Below are positions 47,760 to 63,757 of a DNA stretch of 64,000 bases, piece after piece; within the stretch, counting starts at the first letter, position 1, and every line of letters begins with the position of its first letter. Origin of the DNA: a virus (lineage: Duplodnaviria > Caudoviricetes). The translations under genes were made by a program, and so were the position numbers. The stretch is from positions 13-64,012 of IMG/VR virus record IMGVR_UViG_3300025872_000056; one strand, given 5' to 3'. A model generated the notes under the pieces. The model saw only the letters and a program-made list of their open reading frames with translations. It was not told the DNA's origin and did not search any database.

Positions 47760-48170
47760 ATGAAATCATTTAAGCAATATCTAATAAACGAAGAATCGGA
47801 AACCCCAGCAAAAAAAGATTATGATGGAGATGGAGTAATAGAACCTGGAAGCAAAGAATGGAAAGATTCCAGGGATAACGCCATAAAGCAATCAATCGCT
47901 GAACGTGATAGAGGCGATTATGCTGCTTTGGAAAAAAGATTTGCAGAAATCAGTGATGCCGATTTAACTAGATTACTCCCGGGGCCAGTAAAAAAGTTTG
48001 GAATTAGTGGAGTTAGAAAAAATCTTGGTCAATTTGTCGATAATACGGGAAAACCAAGAACTGCTGCCGCTGCAATGGCACAACACTTTAAATCTGGTGA
48101 AGGTGGCAAATCTCTTGGGAAAATATTAGATCCTGTAAAAGCAGACCGAGCACGCCCACAGGAAGATTAA
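47760..48170 (+). CDS. putative internal head protein
   Basis: MKSFKQYLINEE; KDYDGDG.IE..SKE...SRDNAIK motif. Confidence 0.65.
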   Translation: MKSFKQYLINEESETPAKKDYDGDGVIEPGSKEWKDSRDNAIKQSIAERDRGDYAALEKRFAEISDADLTRLLPGPVKKFGISGVRKNLGQFVDNTGKPRTAAAAMAQHFKSGEGGKSLGKILDPVKADRARPQED

Positions 48171-55576: not shown

Positions 55577-56386
55577 TCAAGAATTGCTGTTGTAGTAATT
55601 CTTCTCCTTGCAGCAATCCTTGTTCATGTTTCGCTCAATCTCGTTGATGCGACGGTTCGTTGACTCAATCGCCTCATCGGTAGTCTGATAAATTCCACGC
55701 ATGGAATCGTCAACATGACGCTGCATGGCCTCCATCTTGGAGCGCATATACAGATGGTAGATGCTGACTCCAAAGAACCCTGCGAGAACCCAACCGATAA
55801 GAGTGCTGTCAATTTCCATTTTGTTTCCTTTTTGTTGTTCGCCGTCGATGCACTATGGTATCACGCCTTGGCCGCTGTGTCAAGCCCCTCGCTCAACATT
55901 TTTCGGAAATGTTCAAACAAAGAATCGGCGTAGTAAACATAATCATCACACAAATCAAAAACCTCGCCATCATTTGCAAGAATCTCTGAACAAATGATTA
56001 CATTGTTCTGAATGTCATTGAAATCTAGCCCATTCAGATTGCACATACCTATCTCAAGATCATTCCCGGTTTCTCTGAAGAAACTTTTCTTGAGAATTAA
56101 GATGGAATTATCCGATTCAAAAGACCATTCAAAATCATCAAAAGAACCTTTGGACGGGATTTTGTTCAGGGACTTATCCATTGAATTACTTCTTGAGATT
56201 GTCCTCAATCTTGTTGACATCCCGCTCAAGTGCGGTAATGTCATCACGAATCCAACGGTACTCCGTATCCATGAACTTCCGGCACTCATCGAATTTTGTA
56301 TCGACATAGTGCTTCATCAGGTGGAAGCAGAATCCAAGCAAAGTAATCGCAAACAAAATCCAAGCAAAGTAAGTGTACCAATTCAT
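55577..56386 (-). CDS. small early genes (55577-55819, 55861-about 56182, 56186-56386)
   Basis: Two have an N-terminal TM and AAGGAAACAAA RBS. Confidence 0.55.
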
Positions 56387-58786: not shown

Positions 58787-61100
58787 TCAGATTTCCTCGT
58801 CATCCCCCATGCTGCGGTCGAAATCCGCCATGAAGGAGTCATCGCCGTCATCCTCGTCCTGATCGCTTTCATCCACCTTCATCTCGTAGAGGAAGGCAGT
58901 CTGAAGGATGCTGAACATTAGAGCCTTCTCCATCGGAGAAAACTCGCTTGGCTGATGGTCGTTCATCAACTTCTTGACAGACGAAACAAGAAGATTACGA
59001 ATCTTGTTGTCGTTGAACCACATCTTGCCCTTCTCGTTGAGGGGAAGGCTGATGCCGTACTGAAGGCTCATCAGGACGGAACTGATTTGCGGCTTGCAGC
59101 CCTTGGCTGCGCGGCCCTGTTCGTATTCCATCACCTTGTTGTATTCCGCAATCTCCGCATCGCTGAAAACTGACATTGTGTTGCTCCTGTTTGAAGTGAA
59201 AGTTAGATCAATCTCCGTCGCCGCCATCGCAGTCATCGATCAGATCCTCAAGAGGATCATCTTCAGGACTCCACCTGTTTGCATCGCGCAACTCGTCCTC
59301 ATCGTCGCCGTCAAAATCGGCATTGGTGAAGTCATCGTCGCCGTTGTCAAGATCGATGATCCGCTTCTCGTACATCGGGCCGTCATAAAGGGGAAAACTG
59401 CTCATCTGTTGCTCCTTGTGAATCAATCTTCCATGTTGCCCATCACAACACTAGAACATTCACGGTGAATGTCCGCAGTAGTGTTCTCCTTGAACCACTT
59501 GACGAAACCATCATAGTCATCGCCTACCAAGAGAATGTTGCCGTCAAAGAAGGCCATCATCTCCTTGTGAATAGCCGCAGCCATAGCCTTGGCATCGTAG
59601 GCATTGTCAGTCAGAATGTTCCTCATCACCATCGAATGCCGCACGGCATGGAGGGAGTAGAGGGTGTTGAGTGCCATGCGTTCTGCGTCAGTCATCGTCG
59701 TTCTCCTGTATCACCATTGTAGCAGAGGCAGGGAGCGGGTCAAGGGGTGCAACGAACTTTTTTTCAGAATTTTTTGCTGCAATTTTGGCGAACTGTTGGT
59801 TGGACTGATAACCTTCAACCAACTTTGCCATAACTTGCCTGCGTAGTTCTGCCTGATCTTCAGGTGAAAGGAAATCCAATGCCTTGTCATTGAATGAGAA
59901 CAAGTCAGGATCTTCAACCAAATTAAGGTTGCCATTCCTGTATTGGAACCAACATGAATTTGTCTGCTCGTTCAATTCTCCGTAATTGAACACAACATAC
60001 ATCTCATGGGTTTTTGGAAAGACATCTAGTTTCTCAATCAGCATCAGAGGCCCAACTCCTCGTCAAGTGCGGCAAGTTTGTCAAGACTTTCCTGCTGCTT
60101 CATGTTGCTTGATTCGTAGTCATCTTCAGCCGAATCAAGAATGTGTTGCGGCATATCGGTATCAACAAGATCGACAAGATCATCGACAACCTTGAAGGGA
60201 AGATCCTTGGCCTTCCAAGTTTGAGAAGTCCCATCGCGGAAGATTTCCACAACTTCCGTAATGTTGATCGAATCTATCTCATAACGGGTGAGGGGAAACC
60301 CTGCAAGCGGCTCCGGGGAAACGCGAGTCCACTTGATTTGGAATGCAATCTCCAAGAGATCGCAGCCCTCCAACGCATTCCTCACGGCAGGCGTAAAGTT
60401 CTTTGCGAAAATGTACCGGGTGTAGACCTTGTTCATGCCTTTACCATTCCGTTCGTTGTTACCATCACAGAAAGAGCGTTCAGGAAGTCAAGAACCTGTT
60501 GCGGGGAAAGAGAAGGAAGAACCTTGTCATCCTGATAATCAAATCCCGGAACATGGACAAAATCACCAAGAGCATCCAAGGCCGCGACTTCCGCAGTCAT
60601 CGCAGCGGAGAAATCCTTTGGATCTTTCCTCACGCAGTAATGCCCCATTCCCCATCGGACACTTGCCTTGAGGCCATTCGGGAAAACAATCGTAAACCCG
60701 TTCGGGTACAGAGTGAAGTTTTGCAGATCAGAGGGGTTCATACTGTAATCTCCTTGTTCTTCAGATTGTCGAACATTCGTTCAACCTCGCTGACTTTCTT
60801 CTTGTTCTGTCTCTTTGCAAGATCAATCACGGTTATGAGAGATTCATGCTTGCGGCCAATCTTATTGTGCTTTGTTAGAAACTCACCGTACTCTTTGCTA
60901 GTGATCAAACCAACTTGCACATACGCAAACATCACTCCATAGGAACGATCTTCTGATTTTGCGGCATCCCTGATCAAATCTTCCATGCGGGTATCAATGT
61001 TGTCGGCCTTTGAGAGAAATTCAACCTTTCCCTCGTAGATGGAAAGAGCAGACTCAATCTCAATCTTTGCGGCGGTCGCCATATGCTGTTTCGTTGCCAT
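58787..61100 (-). CDS. run of small early genes (58787-59177, 59208-59426, 59423-59695, 59688-60044, 60044-60436, 60433-60741, 60738-61100)
   Basis: Overlapping stop/start chain on minus strand. Confidence 0.6.
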
Positions 61101-61184
61101 GTTCATATGGTAGCAGGGGCTACCGGGGAGTCAAGGGGGGAAGTGAACTTTTTTTCGGAATTTTTTTCGGACAGATTTAACGAA

Positions 61185-61557
61185 AGCCCCCCGGAGTCTT
61201 GCAAAACTCCGGGGGGTTCGCTCCATGCACTCAAGGAGTATCCATTAGATTATGAAGTTTGTGAGGCATCTACCACAAACTTCCGCACAAATCAGGGGGA
61301 TATCCTATTGCCCTGATATTTTTCGCCCGACAAGTTTGTACGAACTTGGTCGAACGCCATGCGTAGATGCGGGGTGGATCGGTCGCGGTTTCTCCCCAAC
61401 TAGGGAAGGTATTGGCCTCTTGAGCCACCAACCGTCTTACTTCCGATCCGGTGCGCCAATCAACCGATTGGCTCCCCGCCGCTTTGGGCCTAACTACACT
61501 ATTTTAACTCGCCCAAACGAGCAGTATGAAGAAGCGCATTCGCCTCGTTGTCGTATA
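61185..61557 (-). ncRNA. putative large structured ncRNA (about 370 nt)
   Basis: Own promoter TTGACA-N16-TACCAT (61563-61590), terminator hairpin 61185-61218, many stems, no sense ORF. Confidence 0.65.
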
Positions 61558-61632
61558 CGCATATGGTATCAGGTGCGTATCGCCTGTCAAGCCCTGTTCA
61601 CGCTTTTTCTCACATTTTTTTGTGAGAGAGAT

Positions 61633-63757
61633 TTAGCGGGATTCCTTGCCCGTCAGGATATAGGGCAAGATATCCAAGGTCATGGTTCCGATAAAGAGAA
61701 GGGCAAACAGGGCAAACATCCCTGCAATTCCCCGCATCATCGGATCGTTGTCTGAATCAAGGGCAATCCAAAGTTGGAAGCCGATGATCGACCAACAGAA
61801 AATAATAGAAGCAGCCGTCAGGACGCGCTCAAGAGTCTTTTTCATTTCTTTCTCTTTTTGAAGGAGGACTTTTTCAGAGATTTTTCTTCCGCAGTTTCAG
61901 GCAGTTCGTTCAAAACTATGTCTGCTGCCTCTGCCACGGTAAGATTGGGGAATCTCTGTCGAACCAATCTTATCAATGCAATTGCATTTGAAAATGCCTT
62001 TGGGTCGTGTTCGATCATTTCAGATCGTTCTCAACAGTTCGTTGCATTTTGCAAACTTTTCAGTAAGCATCTGCAAAGTTTCGTATGAAGGATCGTCAGA
62101 TTCCACCAAATCGTGAATGGAAACTTTCAGAACTTCACAGTAATCCAACAGAAGATCGTACAGATCGTCGTACTGCTGTTGGGAAAGATTGATTCTAGCC
62201 GGGGCAGGATCAATCGTCGTAAATTTTTCGGGATCAGCCATCGTTGGTTTCCTCGAAATCCTTCTGATCCCCGTAGAGATCGGGCCAATTCCTCTCAACC
62301 GCAATCATCTGCGGACAGGAGAGGCCATTCTCTGCGCCGTTCAGGGTAGAGGAAAGTTCACAAATTTCCCTACGCAGATCGTCACGCTCACGAATGAGTT
62401 GGGCGATTCGCTCCTCGTAGATCATCTTCTGTTCCACAAGCACGGTTCGGATCATATCAGGCATCGTTCTGCTTTCTTTGGGCGTAGCGTTCTACCTTGA
62501 TTCCGTACTCAATCATGTTCAGCATCTCGTAAACCTTACGAGAAGGGTATCCACCGAAAGTGACGCATTCAACGCCAAGTTCCGGCGAATCAGGAATTTC
62601 AATCAAGCGGCCCAACCCGTAGGCTCTGCCACTCCTTGAGAGAAAGAAGGTTCCGGGGAATCCGGGCTTGAGGTTTAGAGTCTGATTGACTCTCTCAACC
62701 ACATCGATCAGGACTTGCTCTGTGATTCGTATTGGCATGGCTGAATGATACCCCATGAGGGGAGGGAGTCAACCCTGAAAGTGTCCCGAATGTGAAATTT
62801 TTTTCACAGAGGACGATTCTTGAACACATACGGCAAAATTCCAAGACCGAATGTGAACATCCACGATGCGTAGATTGCTCCAACCCCGACAACCGACAGG
62901 GAGAGAAAATCACCCCAAGTCTCTCCCTTGAAGATTGCGAGGTAGAGAAGGACAAATCCACAGCACCACATCGTCAGGGTGGCAGCACCCATGAAAATTC
63001 TATCTGAAATCGTTCCGGGTTGCAGAAACTTCATTTCGTTTCTCCTCAATTTTTTTTCAGGAAGTTTTCCAATAGCCGTAGACGCACCGCTTCCCGGCCC
63101 GTGAGCAGTCATGGTTGTCGTGAATTACCCCGTCAACCATAGCGACGAGGTGCTTGCTTACCCGCACGACAAGTCTGCCGGAAGGAAGTTCAGAGGGATT
63201 CAGGTGAACCCGGCATCCGCTTCCCCGGCACATCGTCGCAGTCCACAGAAAACCATGATCTTCCATGTACCGCTTGAACCAATTTTCCCGCACCTGAACC
63301 CCGCTGTCAGGGTTGGAGCCGGAAAGATTCCACAGATCAGCGTGAACTTCTGCGTAATTTCTACGCATGGCGATAGCCAAGGCCCGGACTACGCAGTCGC
63401 CCACCCGCTTTCGGCCAAACTTGCCGGAAGCACTCCTCCCCCCATCGTCAAAGATGAAAGGAATTTTTTCAACTTTCATTGAAACAGCCTTTCCTGTTCG
63501 GTTGCGGCAAACTTCTTTTCTTCTTCCTTGTCTTGGAGCAACTTCACACCAAGTACCATGAAGTTCATGGCATCGTAAACTTCCTTCTTTGGCCTGAAGC
63601 CCATCGTGATGGTTTCCTTGCCTTTGCCACGGGTGCGCTGCAACTGAAAGCCCCCGTAGGCCATCTGAAGGGTGAAATCATCCTGATCCTTGGTCGTGCC
63701 AAGGGCAGCATTCAAGCGGGAAAGACCGTGATAGAGGATTCGTGTGGTGACTCGCAT
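61633..63757 (-). CDS. run of small early genes (61633-61845, 62020-62241, 62234-62464, 62457-62738, 62804-63034, 63057-63479, 63476-63757)
   Basis: Coupled ORFs; 63057 has GDCVVRALAIA motif. Confidence 0.6.

What the first reader, a model, noticed from the sequence alone, without database searches (positions are those of the whole stretch)
61185..61590. About 370-nt highly structured orphan RNA with own promoter, terminator and long-range pairings
Seen on minus strand: GCGGGG/CCCCGC encloses GCCAATC/GATTGGC and GGATCGG/CCGATCC with inner hairpins. Then CGACCAAGTT/AACTTGTCG, ATCAGGG/CCCTGAT, GAAGTTTGTG/CACAAACTTC and an 11-bp terminator stem. The loop GTAGATGC is complementary to upstream GCATCTAC (8 bp), and loop CTCAAG to downstream CTTGAG, suggesting two pseudoknots. 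No sense ORF. I could not see RNase P, group I intron, 6S or SRP signatures. Candidate new large phage ncRNA.
Basis: partly seen in the sequence, partly recalled or inferred. Interest (0 to 1): 0.8.

Follow-up and report, generated by a model that had tools for sequence, protein, structure and literature searches.

The report
Pistol ribozyme heading a phage RNA
The front half of this folded phage RNA is a member of a known self-cutting RNA class (the pistol ribozyme) with an unusually large side arm, and it probably cuts the transcript in two to free a folded RNA of about 185 bases whose job is unknown.

Summary
The RNA is not a wholly new class. Positions 61522-61361 form a pistol self-cleaving ribozyme (Rfam RF02679, 33.2 bits against a cut-off of 34.5).

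- **Conserved parts:** P1, the 6-bp pseudoknot, the A-rich linker and the core residues (purine-32, G33, G40, C41, G42) are all there.
GCGGGG/CCCCGC is pistol stem P3, here carrying a 99-nt branched insertion.
- **Cleavage site:** P3 is followed by the strictly 2-nt junction (A-U here) and a 6-bp P2. The predicted cut lies between 61368 and 61367.
- **Precedent:** Other phage contigs hold pistols with P3 up to 113 nt, and 5 of 19 have A-U junctions.
- **3' half:** 61367 to about 61183 matches no family and has no homologues beyond near-identical strains, so its role is inferred only.
- **Lead:** Its first 13 nt are perfectly antisense to the phage gene at 63057-63479.

Cutting itself is untested. 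The scan has already noted long-armed phage pistols on other DNA.

The parts
61563..61590 (-). Sigma-70-type promoter: -35 TTGACA (61590-61585), 16-nt spacer, TG-extended -10 TACCAT (61568-61563). The start is predicted near 61556.
   Evidence: 10 of 12 matches, TG present. The same TTGAC-N16-19-TACCAT form occurs 3 times in the window against 0.12 expected. The start site is inferred, not mapped.
61531..61546 (-). Small leader hairpin (GAGGCG / CGCUUC) between the predicted start and the ribozyme.
   Evidence: MFE fold. No comparative support.
61507..61522 (-). Pistol P1 hairpin: GCUC / GAGU with the 8-nt loop GUUUGGGC.
   Evidence: Rfam alignment. 4 of 4 pairs form.
61483..61517 (-). Pistol pseudoknot: UUUGGG (61517-61512) pairs with CCCAAA (61488-61483). 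The span also holds the linker UAAAAUA (61506-61500).
   Evidence: 6 of 6 Watson-Crick pairs. In 20 of 20 sequences the variable pair is kept, as C-G in 7 and U-A in 13. The MFE fold draws this pairing as a hairpin.
61480..61493 (-). Catalytic core: UUA, purine-32 (G61490), G33 (61489), G40 (61482), C41 (61481), G42 (61480).
   Evidence: The roles of these residues come from the review PMC6154101 (passages read).
61494..61499 (-). P2 5' strand, GUGUAG.
   Evidence: It pairs with CUACGC at 61366-61361 (6 pairs, one of them G.U)..
61369..61479 (-). P3: closing helix GCGGGG/CCCCGC around a 99-nt branched insertion (61473-61375). The insertion holds hairpin 61472-61455, stem 61449-61443/61382-61376 and a distal three-way junction.
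   Evidence: (z -3.6). In a strain variant the inner 46 nt are replaced by 66 other letters, and the listed substitutions fall in loops or junctions.
61367..61368 (-). Two-nucleotide P3-P2 junction, A-U. The predicted scissile bond lies between A61368 and U61367.
   Evidence: Position follows from the pistol architecture (Harris 2015, PMC4604425, section 5 read). 5 of 19 other viral pistols also have AU. Cleavage was not tested.
61361..61366 (-). P2 3' strand, CUACGC.
   Evidence: P3 plus 2 nt plus P2 closure reached in 345 of 20000 shuffles.
61183..61367 (-). Predicted 3' cleavage product of about 185 nt with a 5'-OH. It has a Y-shaped domain, the hairpin 61284-61254 with loop 61272-61265, small hairpins and the terminator.
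   Evidence: Fold at -74.7 kcal/mol, z -5.9. No Rfam match better than E 0.5 on this stretch, on either strand. No listed change in strain variants.
61187..61216 (-). Intrinsic-terminator-like hairpin (13 pairs, 9 of them G-C) followed by a T-poor tail.
63360..63372 (-). Possible antisense target: 13 nt inside ORF 63057-63479 (codons A37-R40), perfectly complementary to the first 13 nt of the predicted 3' product (61367-61355).
   Evidence: The anchored chance expectation is about 0.001. This is a lead only.

Best explanation
The transcript starts at its own promoter, near 61556. Its 5' half folds into a pistol self-cleaving ribozyme.

- **Fold:** P1 is followed by a 6-bp pseudoknot to the P2-P3 junction, a 6-bp P2, and a P3 stem whose tip has grown into a 99-nt branched domain.
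- **Chemistry:** By the chemistry established for this class, G40 (61482) activates the 2'-OH of A61368, which attacks the bond to U61367.
- **Products:** This gives a fragment of about 189 nt carrying the ribozyme and ending in a 2',3'-cyclic phosphate. It also gives a structured RNA of about 185 nt that starts with a 5'-OH at U61367 and ends at the terminator (61216-61187).
- **Consequence:** A pistol cuts near its own 3' end, so the downstream RNA keeps only 7 ribozyme nucleotides. I infer that the ribozyme is a built-in 5'-end maturation device for that downstream RNA. It would equally sever the RNA from any read-through of the upstream gene.

Shown here: the sequence and structure match to the class. 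Inferred: cleavage itself, the transcript ends, and the role of the released RNA.
For: - **Family models:** Rfam Pistol scores 33.2 bits over the full model 1-68, E 3.3e-4 on the region and 0.028 on the window. A model built from two other phage pistols hits only this site in the 64 kb, at a rough E of 4.4e-5.
- **Conserved features:** P1 forms 4 of 4 pairs and the pseudoknot 6 of 6. The linker is UAAAAUA. UUA, purine-32, G33, G40, C41 and G42 are all present (residue roles from PMC6154101).
- **Pseudoknot covariation:** The window uses the U-A form of the variable pseudoknot pair. That pair is kept in 20 of 20 sequences, as C-G in 7 and U-A in 13.
- **Closure:** A 6-bp P3, then exactly 2 nt, then a 6-bp P2 follow the core. 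This is reached in 345 of 20000 shuffles.
- **Junction rule:** Harris 2015 states that the junction's identity varies but its length is strictly conserved, and that the P3 loop can be deleted.
- **Natural precedent:** Among 19 distinct parsed viral pistols, P3 spans 16-113 nt, with 6 of 57 nt or more. The junction is GU in 13, AU in 5 and GA in 1.
- **Score calibration:** Pistols with long P3 or an AU junction score 20-28 bits below short-P3 ones in Rfam, because only the 5' part is aligned.
- **Strain variants:** No change is listed inside the 5' core 61475-61523, although changes are listed on both sides of it (9 further differences were not shown).
- **Transcription signals:**
Against:
- The P3/P2 closure is only moderately unlikely by chance (p about 0.017).
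- No homologue of the whole element was found, so P2, P3, the insertion and the 3' half have no real covariation support.
- The comparison set was fished with a pattern taken from this core, so its invariance there is by construction.
- A at the position 5' of the cut, together with a 99-nt insertion, has not been tested biochemically.
- No read ends or RNA data show a cut.
- A contig from an RNA library bridges the upstream gene, the promoter and the pistol 5' part (61489-61789). If it is RNA at all, the unit is not only promoter-driven.
Confidence: 0.75

Rival explanations
1. Operon punctuation. The pistol mainly processes read-through transcripts of the upstream small genes (ORF 61633-61845 and beyond). 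It cuts the message off from a structured, terminator-bearing 3' tail. The 3' half would then be a stabilising or terminating tail, not a functional RNA. This reading is compatible with the main one.
For: - No terminator-like site lies between the stop at 61633 and the pistol.
- An RNA-library contig bridges 61489-61789.
- Several viral pistols sit just upstream of ribosome sites and ORFs, and several loci carry 2-3 pistols.
- A review suggests polycistronic processing as a role for bacterial ribozymes (PMC6765202, passages read).
Against: - A good promoter of the phage's recurrent type lies 41 nt upstream of P1.
- The sequence after the cut is 185 nt of strongly folded non-coding RNA (z -5.9), not a gene.
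- The next gene has its own promoter after the terminator.
- The RNA-library contig may be contaminating DNA.
Confidence: 0.3
2. Ribozyme-matured antisense RNA. The cut exposes a 13-nt seed at the extreme 5' end of the 3' product. Before the cut, 6 of those 13 nt are paired in P2. The freed seed pairs with the mRNA of phage ORF 63057-63479 and regulates it.
For: - The first 13 nt of the product (61367-61355) are perfectly antisense to 63372-63360.
- An anchored 13-mer is expected about 0.001 times in 64 kb.
- 16 of the 19 other viral pistols show anchored matches of only 6-8 nt in their loci and 3 show none.
- The duplex energy is -24.5 kcal/mol against an opening cost of 7.6 kcal/mol.
Against: - The match was found after the fact.
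- The duplex energy of the first 30 nt (-35.3 kcal/mol) is reached by 2 of 65 shuffles.
- The target lies inside the coding region, not at the start codon.
- Nine of the 13 seed nucleotides are paired in the product's own best fold.
- No relatives were available to test whether seed and target change together.
Confidence: 0.12
3. Decayed or inactive pistol. The fold is retained as an architectural scaffold, but the large P3 insertion, the A at the cut site or the competing 8-bp pairing (61370-61363 with 61273-61266) prevents cleavage.
For: - The Rfam score is sub-threshold and the lowest of the 15 pistol hits scored from pattern-found cores.
- An 8-bp alternative pairing covers the scissile junction (-10.5 kcal/mol).
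Against: - All catalytic residues are intact and the junction length is correct.
- AU junctions and long P3 arms recur in other phage pistols that pass the Rfam cut-off.
- The competitor loop is transcribed about 95 nt after the cut site.
- P2 plus P3 (-17 kcal/mol) outweigh the competing pairing.
Confidence: 0.1
4. Allosteric ribozyme. The 99-nt branched P3 insertion is a sensor for a ligand or a protein and gates the cleavage.
For: - The insertion is an ordered two-junction domain (z -3.6).
- It is attached to the stem that abuts the active site.
Against: - It matches no aptamer family.
- A close strain variant replaces its inner 46 nt by 66 others and changes loops and junctions. That does not fit a conserved binding pocket.
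- The P3 loop is dispensable in tested pistols.
Confidence: 0.05
5. A wholly new RNA class whose likeness to a pistol is due to chance.
For: - The score lies below Rfam's gathering cut-off.
Against: - Core match, pseudoknot, two-nucleotide junction and P2/P3 closure occur together.
- This is the only hit in the window for two independent models.
Confidence: 0.03

Closest known systems
Pistol self-cleaving ribozyme (Rfam RF02679; Weinberg 2015, recalled, not held; Harris 2015, PMC4604425, sections 3, 5 and 6 read; env25 structure 5K7C as described in PMC6154101)
   Same: - P1, the 6-bp pseudoknot, the A-rich linker, P2 and P3 are present.
- The 2-nt scissile junction and the catalytic purine-32, G33, G40, C41 and G42 are present.
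- The phage context is the usual one.
   Different: - P3 carries a 99-nt branched insertion, against a short hairpin in the tested constructs.
- The junction is AU, not GU.
- P2 has 6 bp, against 2-5 bp in the 19 viral examples parsed here.
- The Rfam score is 1.3 bits under the cut-off.
Earlier scan notes e1-3287452 and e1-5961379 describe similar cases.
   Same: - P3 is expanded.
- L009, L019 and L025 have AU junctions.
- The ribozyme sits at the front of non-coding, structured sequence, sometimes near tRNA genes.
   Different: - Nothing outside the roughly 45-nt core is similar in sequence.
- Their downstream RNAs are unrelated to this one.
- All of them pass the Rfam cut-off.
Theta (HDV-like) ribozymes next to phage tRNAs (PMC10879173; only the search listing and the start of the abstract were seen)
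   Same: A small self-cleaving ribozyme encoded by a phage lies next to a structured non-coding RNA, presumably to define an RNA end.
   Different: - The ribozyme class is different.
- The neighbour is a tRNA, whereas here the released RNA belongs to no known family.
Bacterial small RNAs matured by RNase E so that the seed lies at the new 5' end (for example ArcZ and RprA; recalled, no call)
   Same: Under the antisense reading, processing creates the 5' end that carries the seed.
   Different: - Processing here would be autocatalytic and would leave a 5'-OH.
- The target pairing is untested.

Membership tests
Pistol self-cleaving ribozyme (RF02679) | Short P1 hairpin with an 8-nt loop | tested here: met
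   GCUC/GAGU at 61522-61507, 4 of 4 pairs (one G.U), loop GUUUGGGC.
Pistol self-cleaving ribozyme (RF02679) | Six-base-pair pseudoknot between the P1 loop and the P2-P3 junction | tested here: met
   UUUGGG at 61517-61512 pairs with CCCAAA at 61488-61483, 6 of 6 Watson-Crick pairs. The variable pair is kept in 20 of 20 sequences through two pair types.
Pistol self-cleaving ribozyme (RF02679) | A-rich 7-nt linker between P1 and P2 | tested here: met
   UAAAAUA at 61506-61500, identical to the linker of L022.
Pistol self-cleaving ribozyme (RF02679) | Conserved core residues: purine-32, G33-C41 pair, G40, G42 | tested here: met
   G61490, G61489-C61481, G61482 and G61480. Residue roles come from PMC6154101. 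My mapping of env25 numbers onto Rfam columns (offset of 1) is an inference.
Pistol self-cleaving ribozyme (RF02679) | P3 helix that starts directly after G42 | tested here: met
   GCGGGG/CCCCGC, 6 bp, appears in the MFE folds. It closes a 99-nt insertion. P3 spans 16-113 nt in 19 viral pistols.
Pistol self-cleaving ribozyme (RF02679) | Strictly two-nucleotide junction from P3 to P2 that carries the scissile bond | tested here: met
   The junction is A61368-U61367. Length matches; identity is AU rather than the 'modestly conserved' GU. AU occurs in 5 of 19 viral pistols.
Pistol self-cleaving ribozyme (RF02679) | P2 helix between the linker end and the strand after the junction | tested here: met
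   GUGUAG/CUACGC, 6 pairs. Closure together with P3 is reached in 345 of 20000 shuffles.
Pistol self-cleaving ribozyme (RF02679) | Score at or above Rfam's gathering cut-off (operational, not structural) | tested here: inconclusive
   The score is 33.2 bits against 34.5. The model aligned only 61522-61460 and mis-paired P3 and P2. Long-P3 or AU relatives score 40-55 bits against 65-68 for short ones. The window's score is the lowest seen.
Pistol self-cleaving ribozyme (RF02679) | Mg2+-dependent site-specific self-cleavage giving a 2',3'-cyclic phosphate and a 5'-OH | not testable with these tools
   Only assembled contigs were available from the sequencing runs, and they cannot show RNA ends.
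Trans-acting antisense small RNA | Seed complementary to a target mRNA and conserved together with it | tested here: inconclusive
   A perfect 13-nt match to 63372-63360 starts at nucleotide 1 of the product. No relatives were available to test co-conservation. 2 of 65 shuffles reach the 30-nt duplex energy.
tRNA / tmRNA-like element | Cloverleaf or tRNA-like domain | tested here: not met
   ARAGORN and Rfam find no tRNA or tmRNA at 61183-61590. Read by eye, the P3 insertion has three-way junctions, not a cloverleaf.

The most novel reading that the evidence does not exclude
The pistol is a self-contained maturation switch for a phage regulatory RNA. While the transcript is uncut, 6 of the 13 seed nucleotides are locked in P2. 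Self-cleavage releases a 185-nt RNA whose very first 13 nucleotides, with a 5'-OH end, are a perfect antisense seed against the phage's own gene at 63057-63479. The hairpin loop at 61273-61266, which can pair with the same nucleotides, would serve as an internal decoy or cap. This would be a ribozyme-activated small RNA, a mode of small-RNA biogenesis that my paper searches did not turn up.
Probability: 0.12. Interest if true: 0.7.

Novelty: new member of a known kind. Interest (0 to 1): 0.38.

Why it matters
- **Annotation gap:** A large 'orphan' phage RNA turns out to be half explained by a catalogued ribozyme that standard annotation misses. A long insertion in P3 costs the family model about 20 or more bits.
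- **Possible role for pistols:** The biological role of pistol ribozymes is still open. Units such as this one (promoter, pistol, folded RNA, terminator) suggest that some pistols trim the 5' end of phage non-coding RNAs instead of cutting between genes.
- **A testable case:** The released RNA and its 13-nt match to a nearby gene give a concrete experiment.
- **Method:** Long-P3 variants argue for insertion-tolerant searches when ribozymes are counted in viromes.

Tried and rejected
**Searches for homologues of the whole element, all empty**
- blastn of 61100-61640 against phage records.
- The 122-aa downstream protein in viral contigs.
- An exact 19-nt core stretch in viral contigs.
- The alignment of the 122-aa protein's relatives in metagenome contigs (283 pattern matches, none a relative) and in genome contigs (124 pattern matches, none a relative).
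- A specific core pattern in metagenome contigs.
- Our own earlier findings, searched by place among relatives.

**Searches among more distant relatives**
- Five close relatives of the 122-aa protein exist (79-100% identity), but their DNA could not be fetched.
- Of the 4 closest relatives by the CobS-like gene (L033-L036, 74-75% identity), 3 records were searched and L036 was not held. None of the 3 has a pistol or the RNA. The shared 14-nt match lies in a coding region and is chance.
- Four loci with relatives of the 140-aa protein (about 50% identity) hold no Rfam match at E up to 1.

**Modelling attempts**
- MAFFT could not align the pistol 3' strands across variable P3 lengths.
- A model built from two pistols, like Rfam's, aligns only the 5' part of long-P3 pistols. 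No covariance model could place the window's true P3 and P2 strands, so I parsed them with a script instead.
- A loose motif search for further pistol cores in the window gave 3 matches against 0.87 expected, none convincing.

**Sequencing runs**
- All four runs laid were assembled contigs.
- No RNA-library contig covered 61187-61429. This says nothing either way.
- Depth cannot rank expression.

**Readings considered and dropped**
- A 22-aa frame starts 7 nt after the cut site (seen). Such a frame stays open by chance about one time in three, and it runs through two strong hairpins, so I rejected it.
- A tRNA-like reading of the P3 insertion was rejected.
- The antisense 167-aa ORF 61252-61755 has no family, and I treat it as spurious.

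**Papers**
- Weinberg 2015 and Wilson 2019 are not held.
- Supplementary files of papers were not consulted. The pistol alignment of Weinberg 2015 and Harris 2015 might already contain long-P3 or AU examples.

Full report
**Where the window comes from.** The window is an uncultured-virus record of 64,012 bases, estimated 39% complete. It carries 9 tRNA genes and a permuted tmRNA. The finding lies in a 526-nt gap between two small minus-strand ORFs, 61633-61845 and 60738-61106. Neither ORF has a Pfam or PHROG family.

One has a bulged C, and the terminator stem has 13 pairs, not 11.
- The 406-nt stretch folds at -160.2 kcal/mol against -129.7 +/- 5.7 for shuffles (z -5.36, 0 of 100 as good).
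- A TG-extended TTGACA-16-TACCAT promoter lies at 61590-61563. The form TTGAC-N16-19-TACCAT occurs three times in the window against 0.12 expected, once before the next gene. It therefore looks like a genuine promoter type of this phage.

**What the 5' half is.**
- A permissive Rfam scan gives one notable hit: the Pistol ribozyme at 61522-61460, 33.2 bits against a cut-off of 34.5. The E-value is 3.3e-4 on the region and 0.028 on the whole window.
- Read against the family consensus, the match is complete:
  - P1 is GCUC/GAGU with loop GUUUGGGC.
  - The loop's UUUGGG pairs with CCCAAA, the pistol pseudoknot (6 of 6 pairs).
  - The linker is UAAAAUA.
  - UUA is followed by purine-32 (G61490), G33, then G40, C41 and G42.
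  - According to the review PMC6154101 (passages read), these residues form the active site.
- Directly after P3 come exactly two nucleotides (A61368, U61367) and then CUACGC, which pairs with GUGUAG just before the UUA (P2, 6 pairs).
- With the core fixed, such a P3 plus 2 nt plus P2 closure arises in 345 of 20000 shuffles of the downstream 300 nt.
- A second model, built from two unrelated phage pistols, finds this site and nothing else in the window (rough E 4.4e-5).

**Is a 99-nt P3 insertion with an A-U junction still a pistol?**
- Harris et al. 2015 (PMC4604425, sections 5 and 6 read) say that the GU junction is only modestly conserved and varies. They say its length is strictly conserved, and that active two-strand constructs lack the P3 loop altogether.
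- A pattern taken from the core found 31 viral loci. Their fates in the parse:
  - 3 are cut off just after the core.
  - 3 could not be parsed.
  - 1 parse is doubtful (L016).
  - 5 are duplicates.
  - 19 distinct pistols remain.
- In those 19, P3 spans 16-113 nt, with 6 of 57 nt or more. The junction is GU in 13, AU in 5 and GA in 1.
- L015 (GU) and L030 (AU) have the same linker, P2 and first downstream bases. I therefore take A for G at this position as a natural substitution.
- Rfam scores fall from 65-68 bits for short-P3 examples to 40-55 bits for long-P3 or AU examples, and its alignments then stop after the 5' part.
- The window's 33.2 bits continues this trend but is the lowest value seen, which I count against the assignment.
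- The comparison set was selected with the core pattern, so its invariance there proves nothing. The pseudoknot partner and P1 were not constrained by the pattern, and they pair in all sequences. The variable pseudoknot pair is C-G in 7 and U-A in 13.

**How it most likely works.**
- By the established pistol mechanism, the 2'-OH of A61368 attacks the bond to U61367.
- The transcript from about 61556 would split into a ribozyme fragment of about 189 nt, ending in a cyclic phosphate, and an RNA of about 185 nt starting with a 5'-OH at U61367 and ending at the terminator.
- The cut lies 7 nt from the ribozyme's 3' edge, so the downstream RNA is released almost clean.
- That RNA is strongly folded (z -5.9): a Y-shaped domain, a 10-11-bp hairpin, two small hairpins and the terminator.
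- Apart from the pistol hit, no Rfam match on the scanned stretch 61000-61750 is better than E 0.36, and ARAGORN finds no tRNA there.
- I infer that the pistol defines this RNA's 5' end and separates it from any read-through of the upstream gene. No terminator-like site lies between that gene's stop and the pistol.
- A contig from an RNA library bridges 61489-61789. It could, however, be DNA in that library.

**Strain variation.**
- DNA runs from freshwater and aquaculture samples hold near-identical phage DNA. Two DNA runs and two RNA-library runs were laid.
- A variant lineage shares substitutions at 61453, 61462, 61473 and 61524 and two one-base insertions. In one 2429-nt contig it replaces 61378-61423, the inner part of the P3 insertion, by 66 other letters.
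- The listed substitutions fall in predicted loops or junctions.
- One hairpin (61428-61414) appears to be kept in the variant, with U.G becoming C-G and a loop of 7 instead of 5 nt. I read this from a 30-letter loose end only.
- No change is listed in the 5' core or in 61093-61452 outside the replaced part. Nine further differences were not shown, and the pattern of differences looks mosaic, so I draw no conclusion about selection.

**Two coincidences at the cut site.**
It could compete with the active fold or cap the new 5' end.
- Second, the first 13 nt of the predicted 3' product are perfectly antisense to 63372-63360, inside the phage ORF 63057-63479, which belongs to a PHROG family of unknown function.
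  - An anchored 13-mer is expected about 0.001 times in 64 kb.
  - 16 of the 19 other pistols show anchored matches of only 6-8 nt in their loci and 3 show none.
  - The match was noticed after the fact.
  - The 30-nt duplex energy is reached by 2 of 65 shuffles.
  - Part of the seed is paired in the product's own fold, with an opening cost of 7.6 kcal/mol against -24.5 kcal/mol for the duplex.
- I keep this as the boldest reading, at about 12%.

**Comparison and novelty.**
- The ribozyme is a new member of a known class in its usual phage setting.
- Long-armed phage pistols were already noted by this scan on other DNA (e1-3287452), as was a pistol heading a long folded RNA (e1-5961379).
- My searches and the passages I read turned up no description of pistols heading stand-alone non-coding transcription units. 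I could not read Weinberg 2015 or any supplements.
- The P3 insertion and the 3' RNA have no relatives in any collection searched. Their function therefore rests on inference.

**Verdict.** Interest is moderate.

Noticed in passing
window 1-64000, step near 48000: G+C rises from about 0.33-0.42 before 48 kb to 0.44-0.51 after it. The closest relatives by the CobS-like gene look AT-rich in the stretches I read. This could be a mosaic module or an assembly join.
   Followed up: no
window 55855-55883, 61107-61134, 61563-61590 (all minus); also 59754-59775: A recurrent promoter form, TTGAC-N16-19-TACCAT, occurs 3 times against 0.12 expected. The A-rich stretch upstream of the 61134 copy recurs at 59754-59775.
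   Followed up: partly
window 60738-61106 (minus): Relatives of this 122-aa ORF start at its 9th or 11th codon. The true start is therefore probably 61082 or 61076, not 61106 or the 'leaderless' 61100.
   Followed up: partly
L008 8230-8501 and 5178-7876 (same sequence in L010, L018): A pistol is followed by about 165 nt of non-coding sequence ending in a terminator-like hairpin. It sits just ahead of an array of 24 tRNA genes on the same strand. L010's contig is 210 kb.
   Followed up: partly
L011, L013, L017, downstream of their pistols: Three contigs share a conserved non-coding sequence that starts right at the pistol cut site. It has no Rfam match in L013. It may be another ribozyme-headed phage RNA family.
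   Followed up: no
L015 4405-4616 (minus): A sub-threshold manA RNA match (37.8 bits against 55.2, E 3.2e-6) lies immediately upstream of a pistol.
   Followed up: no
L007, L027, L028: Several pistols occur per locus: 3 in L007, 3 in L028 and 2 in L027. L027 also has a type-P5 twister and six tRNA genes. These are ribozyme arrays of the kind already noted by the scan.
   Followed up: no
L026 1589-1667: A c-di-GMP-I-GGC riboswitch aptamer scores above its cut-off (66.3 bits against 59) on a 234-kb viral contig, 1.4 kb from a pistol.
   Followed up: no
window 61478-61518 as laid on run X7: A 477-nt contig of another organism in the aquaculture run shares only the 41-nt pistol core, with 5 differences. 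It is a separate pistol in the same community.
   Followed up: no
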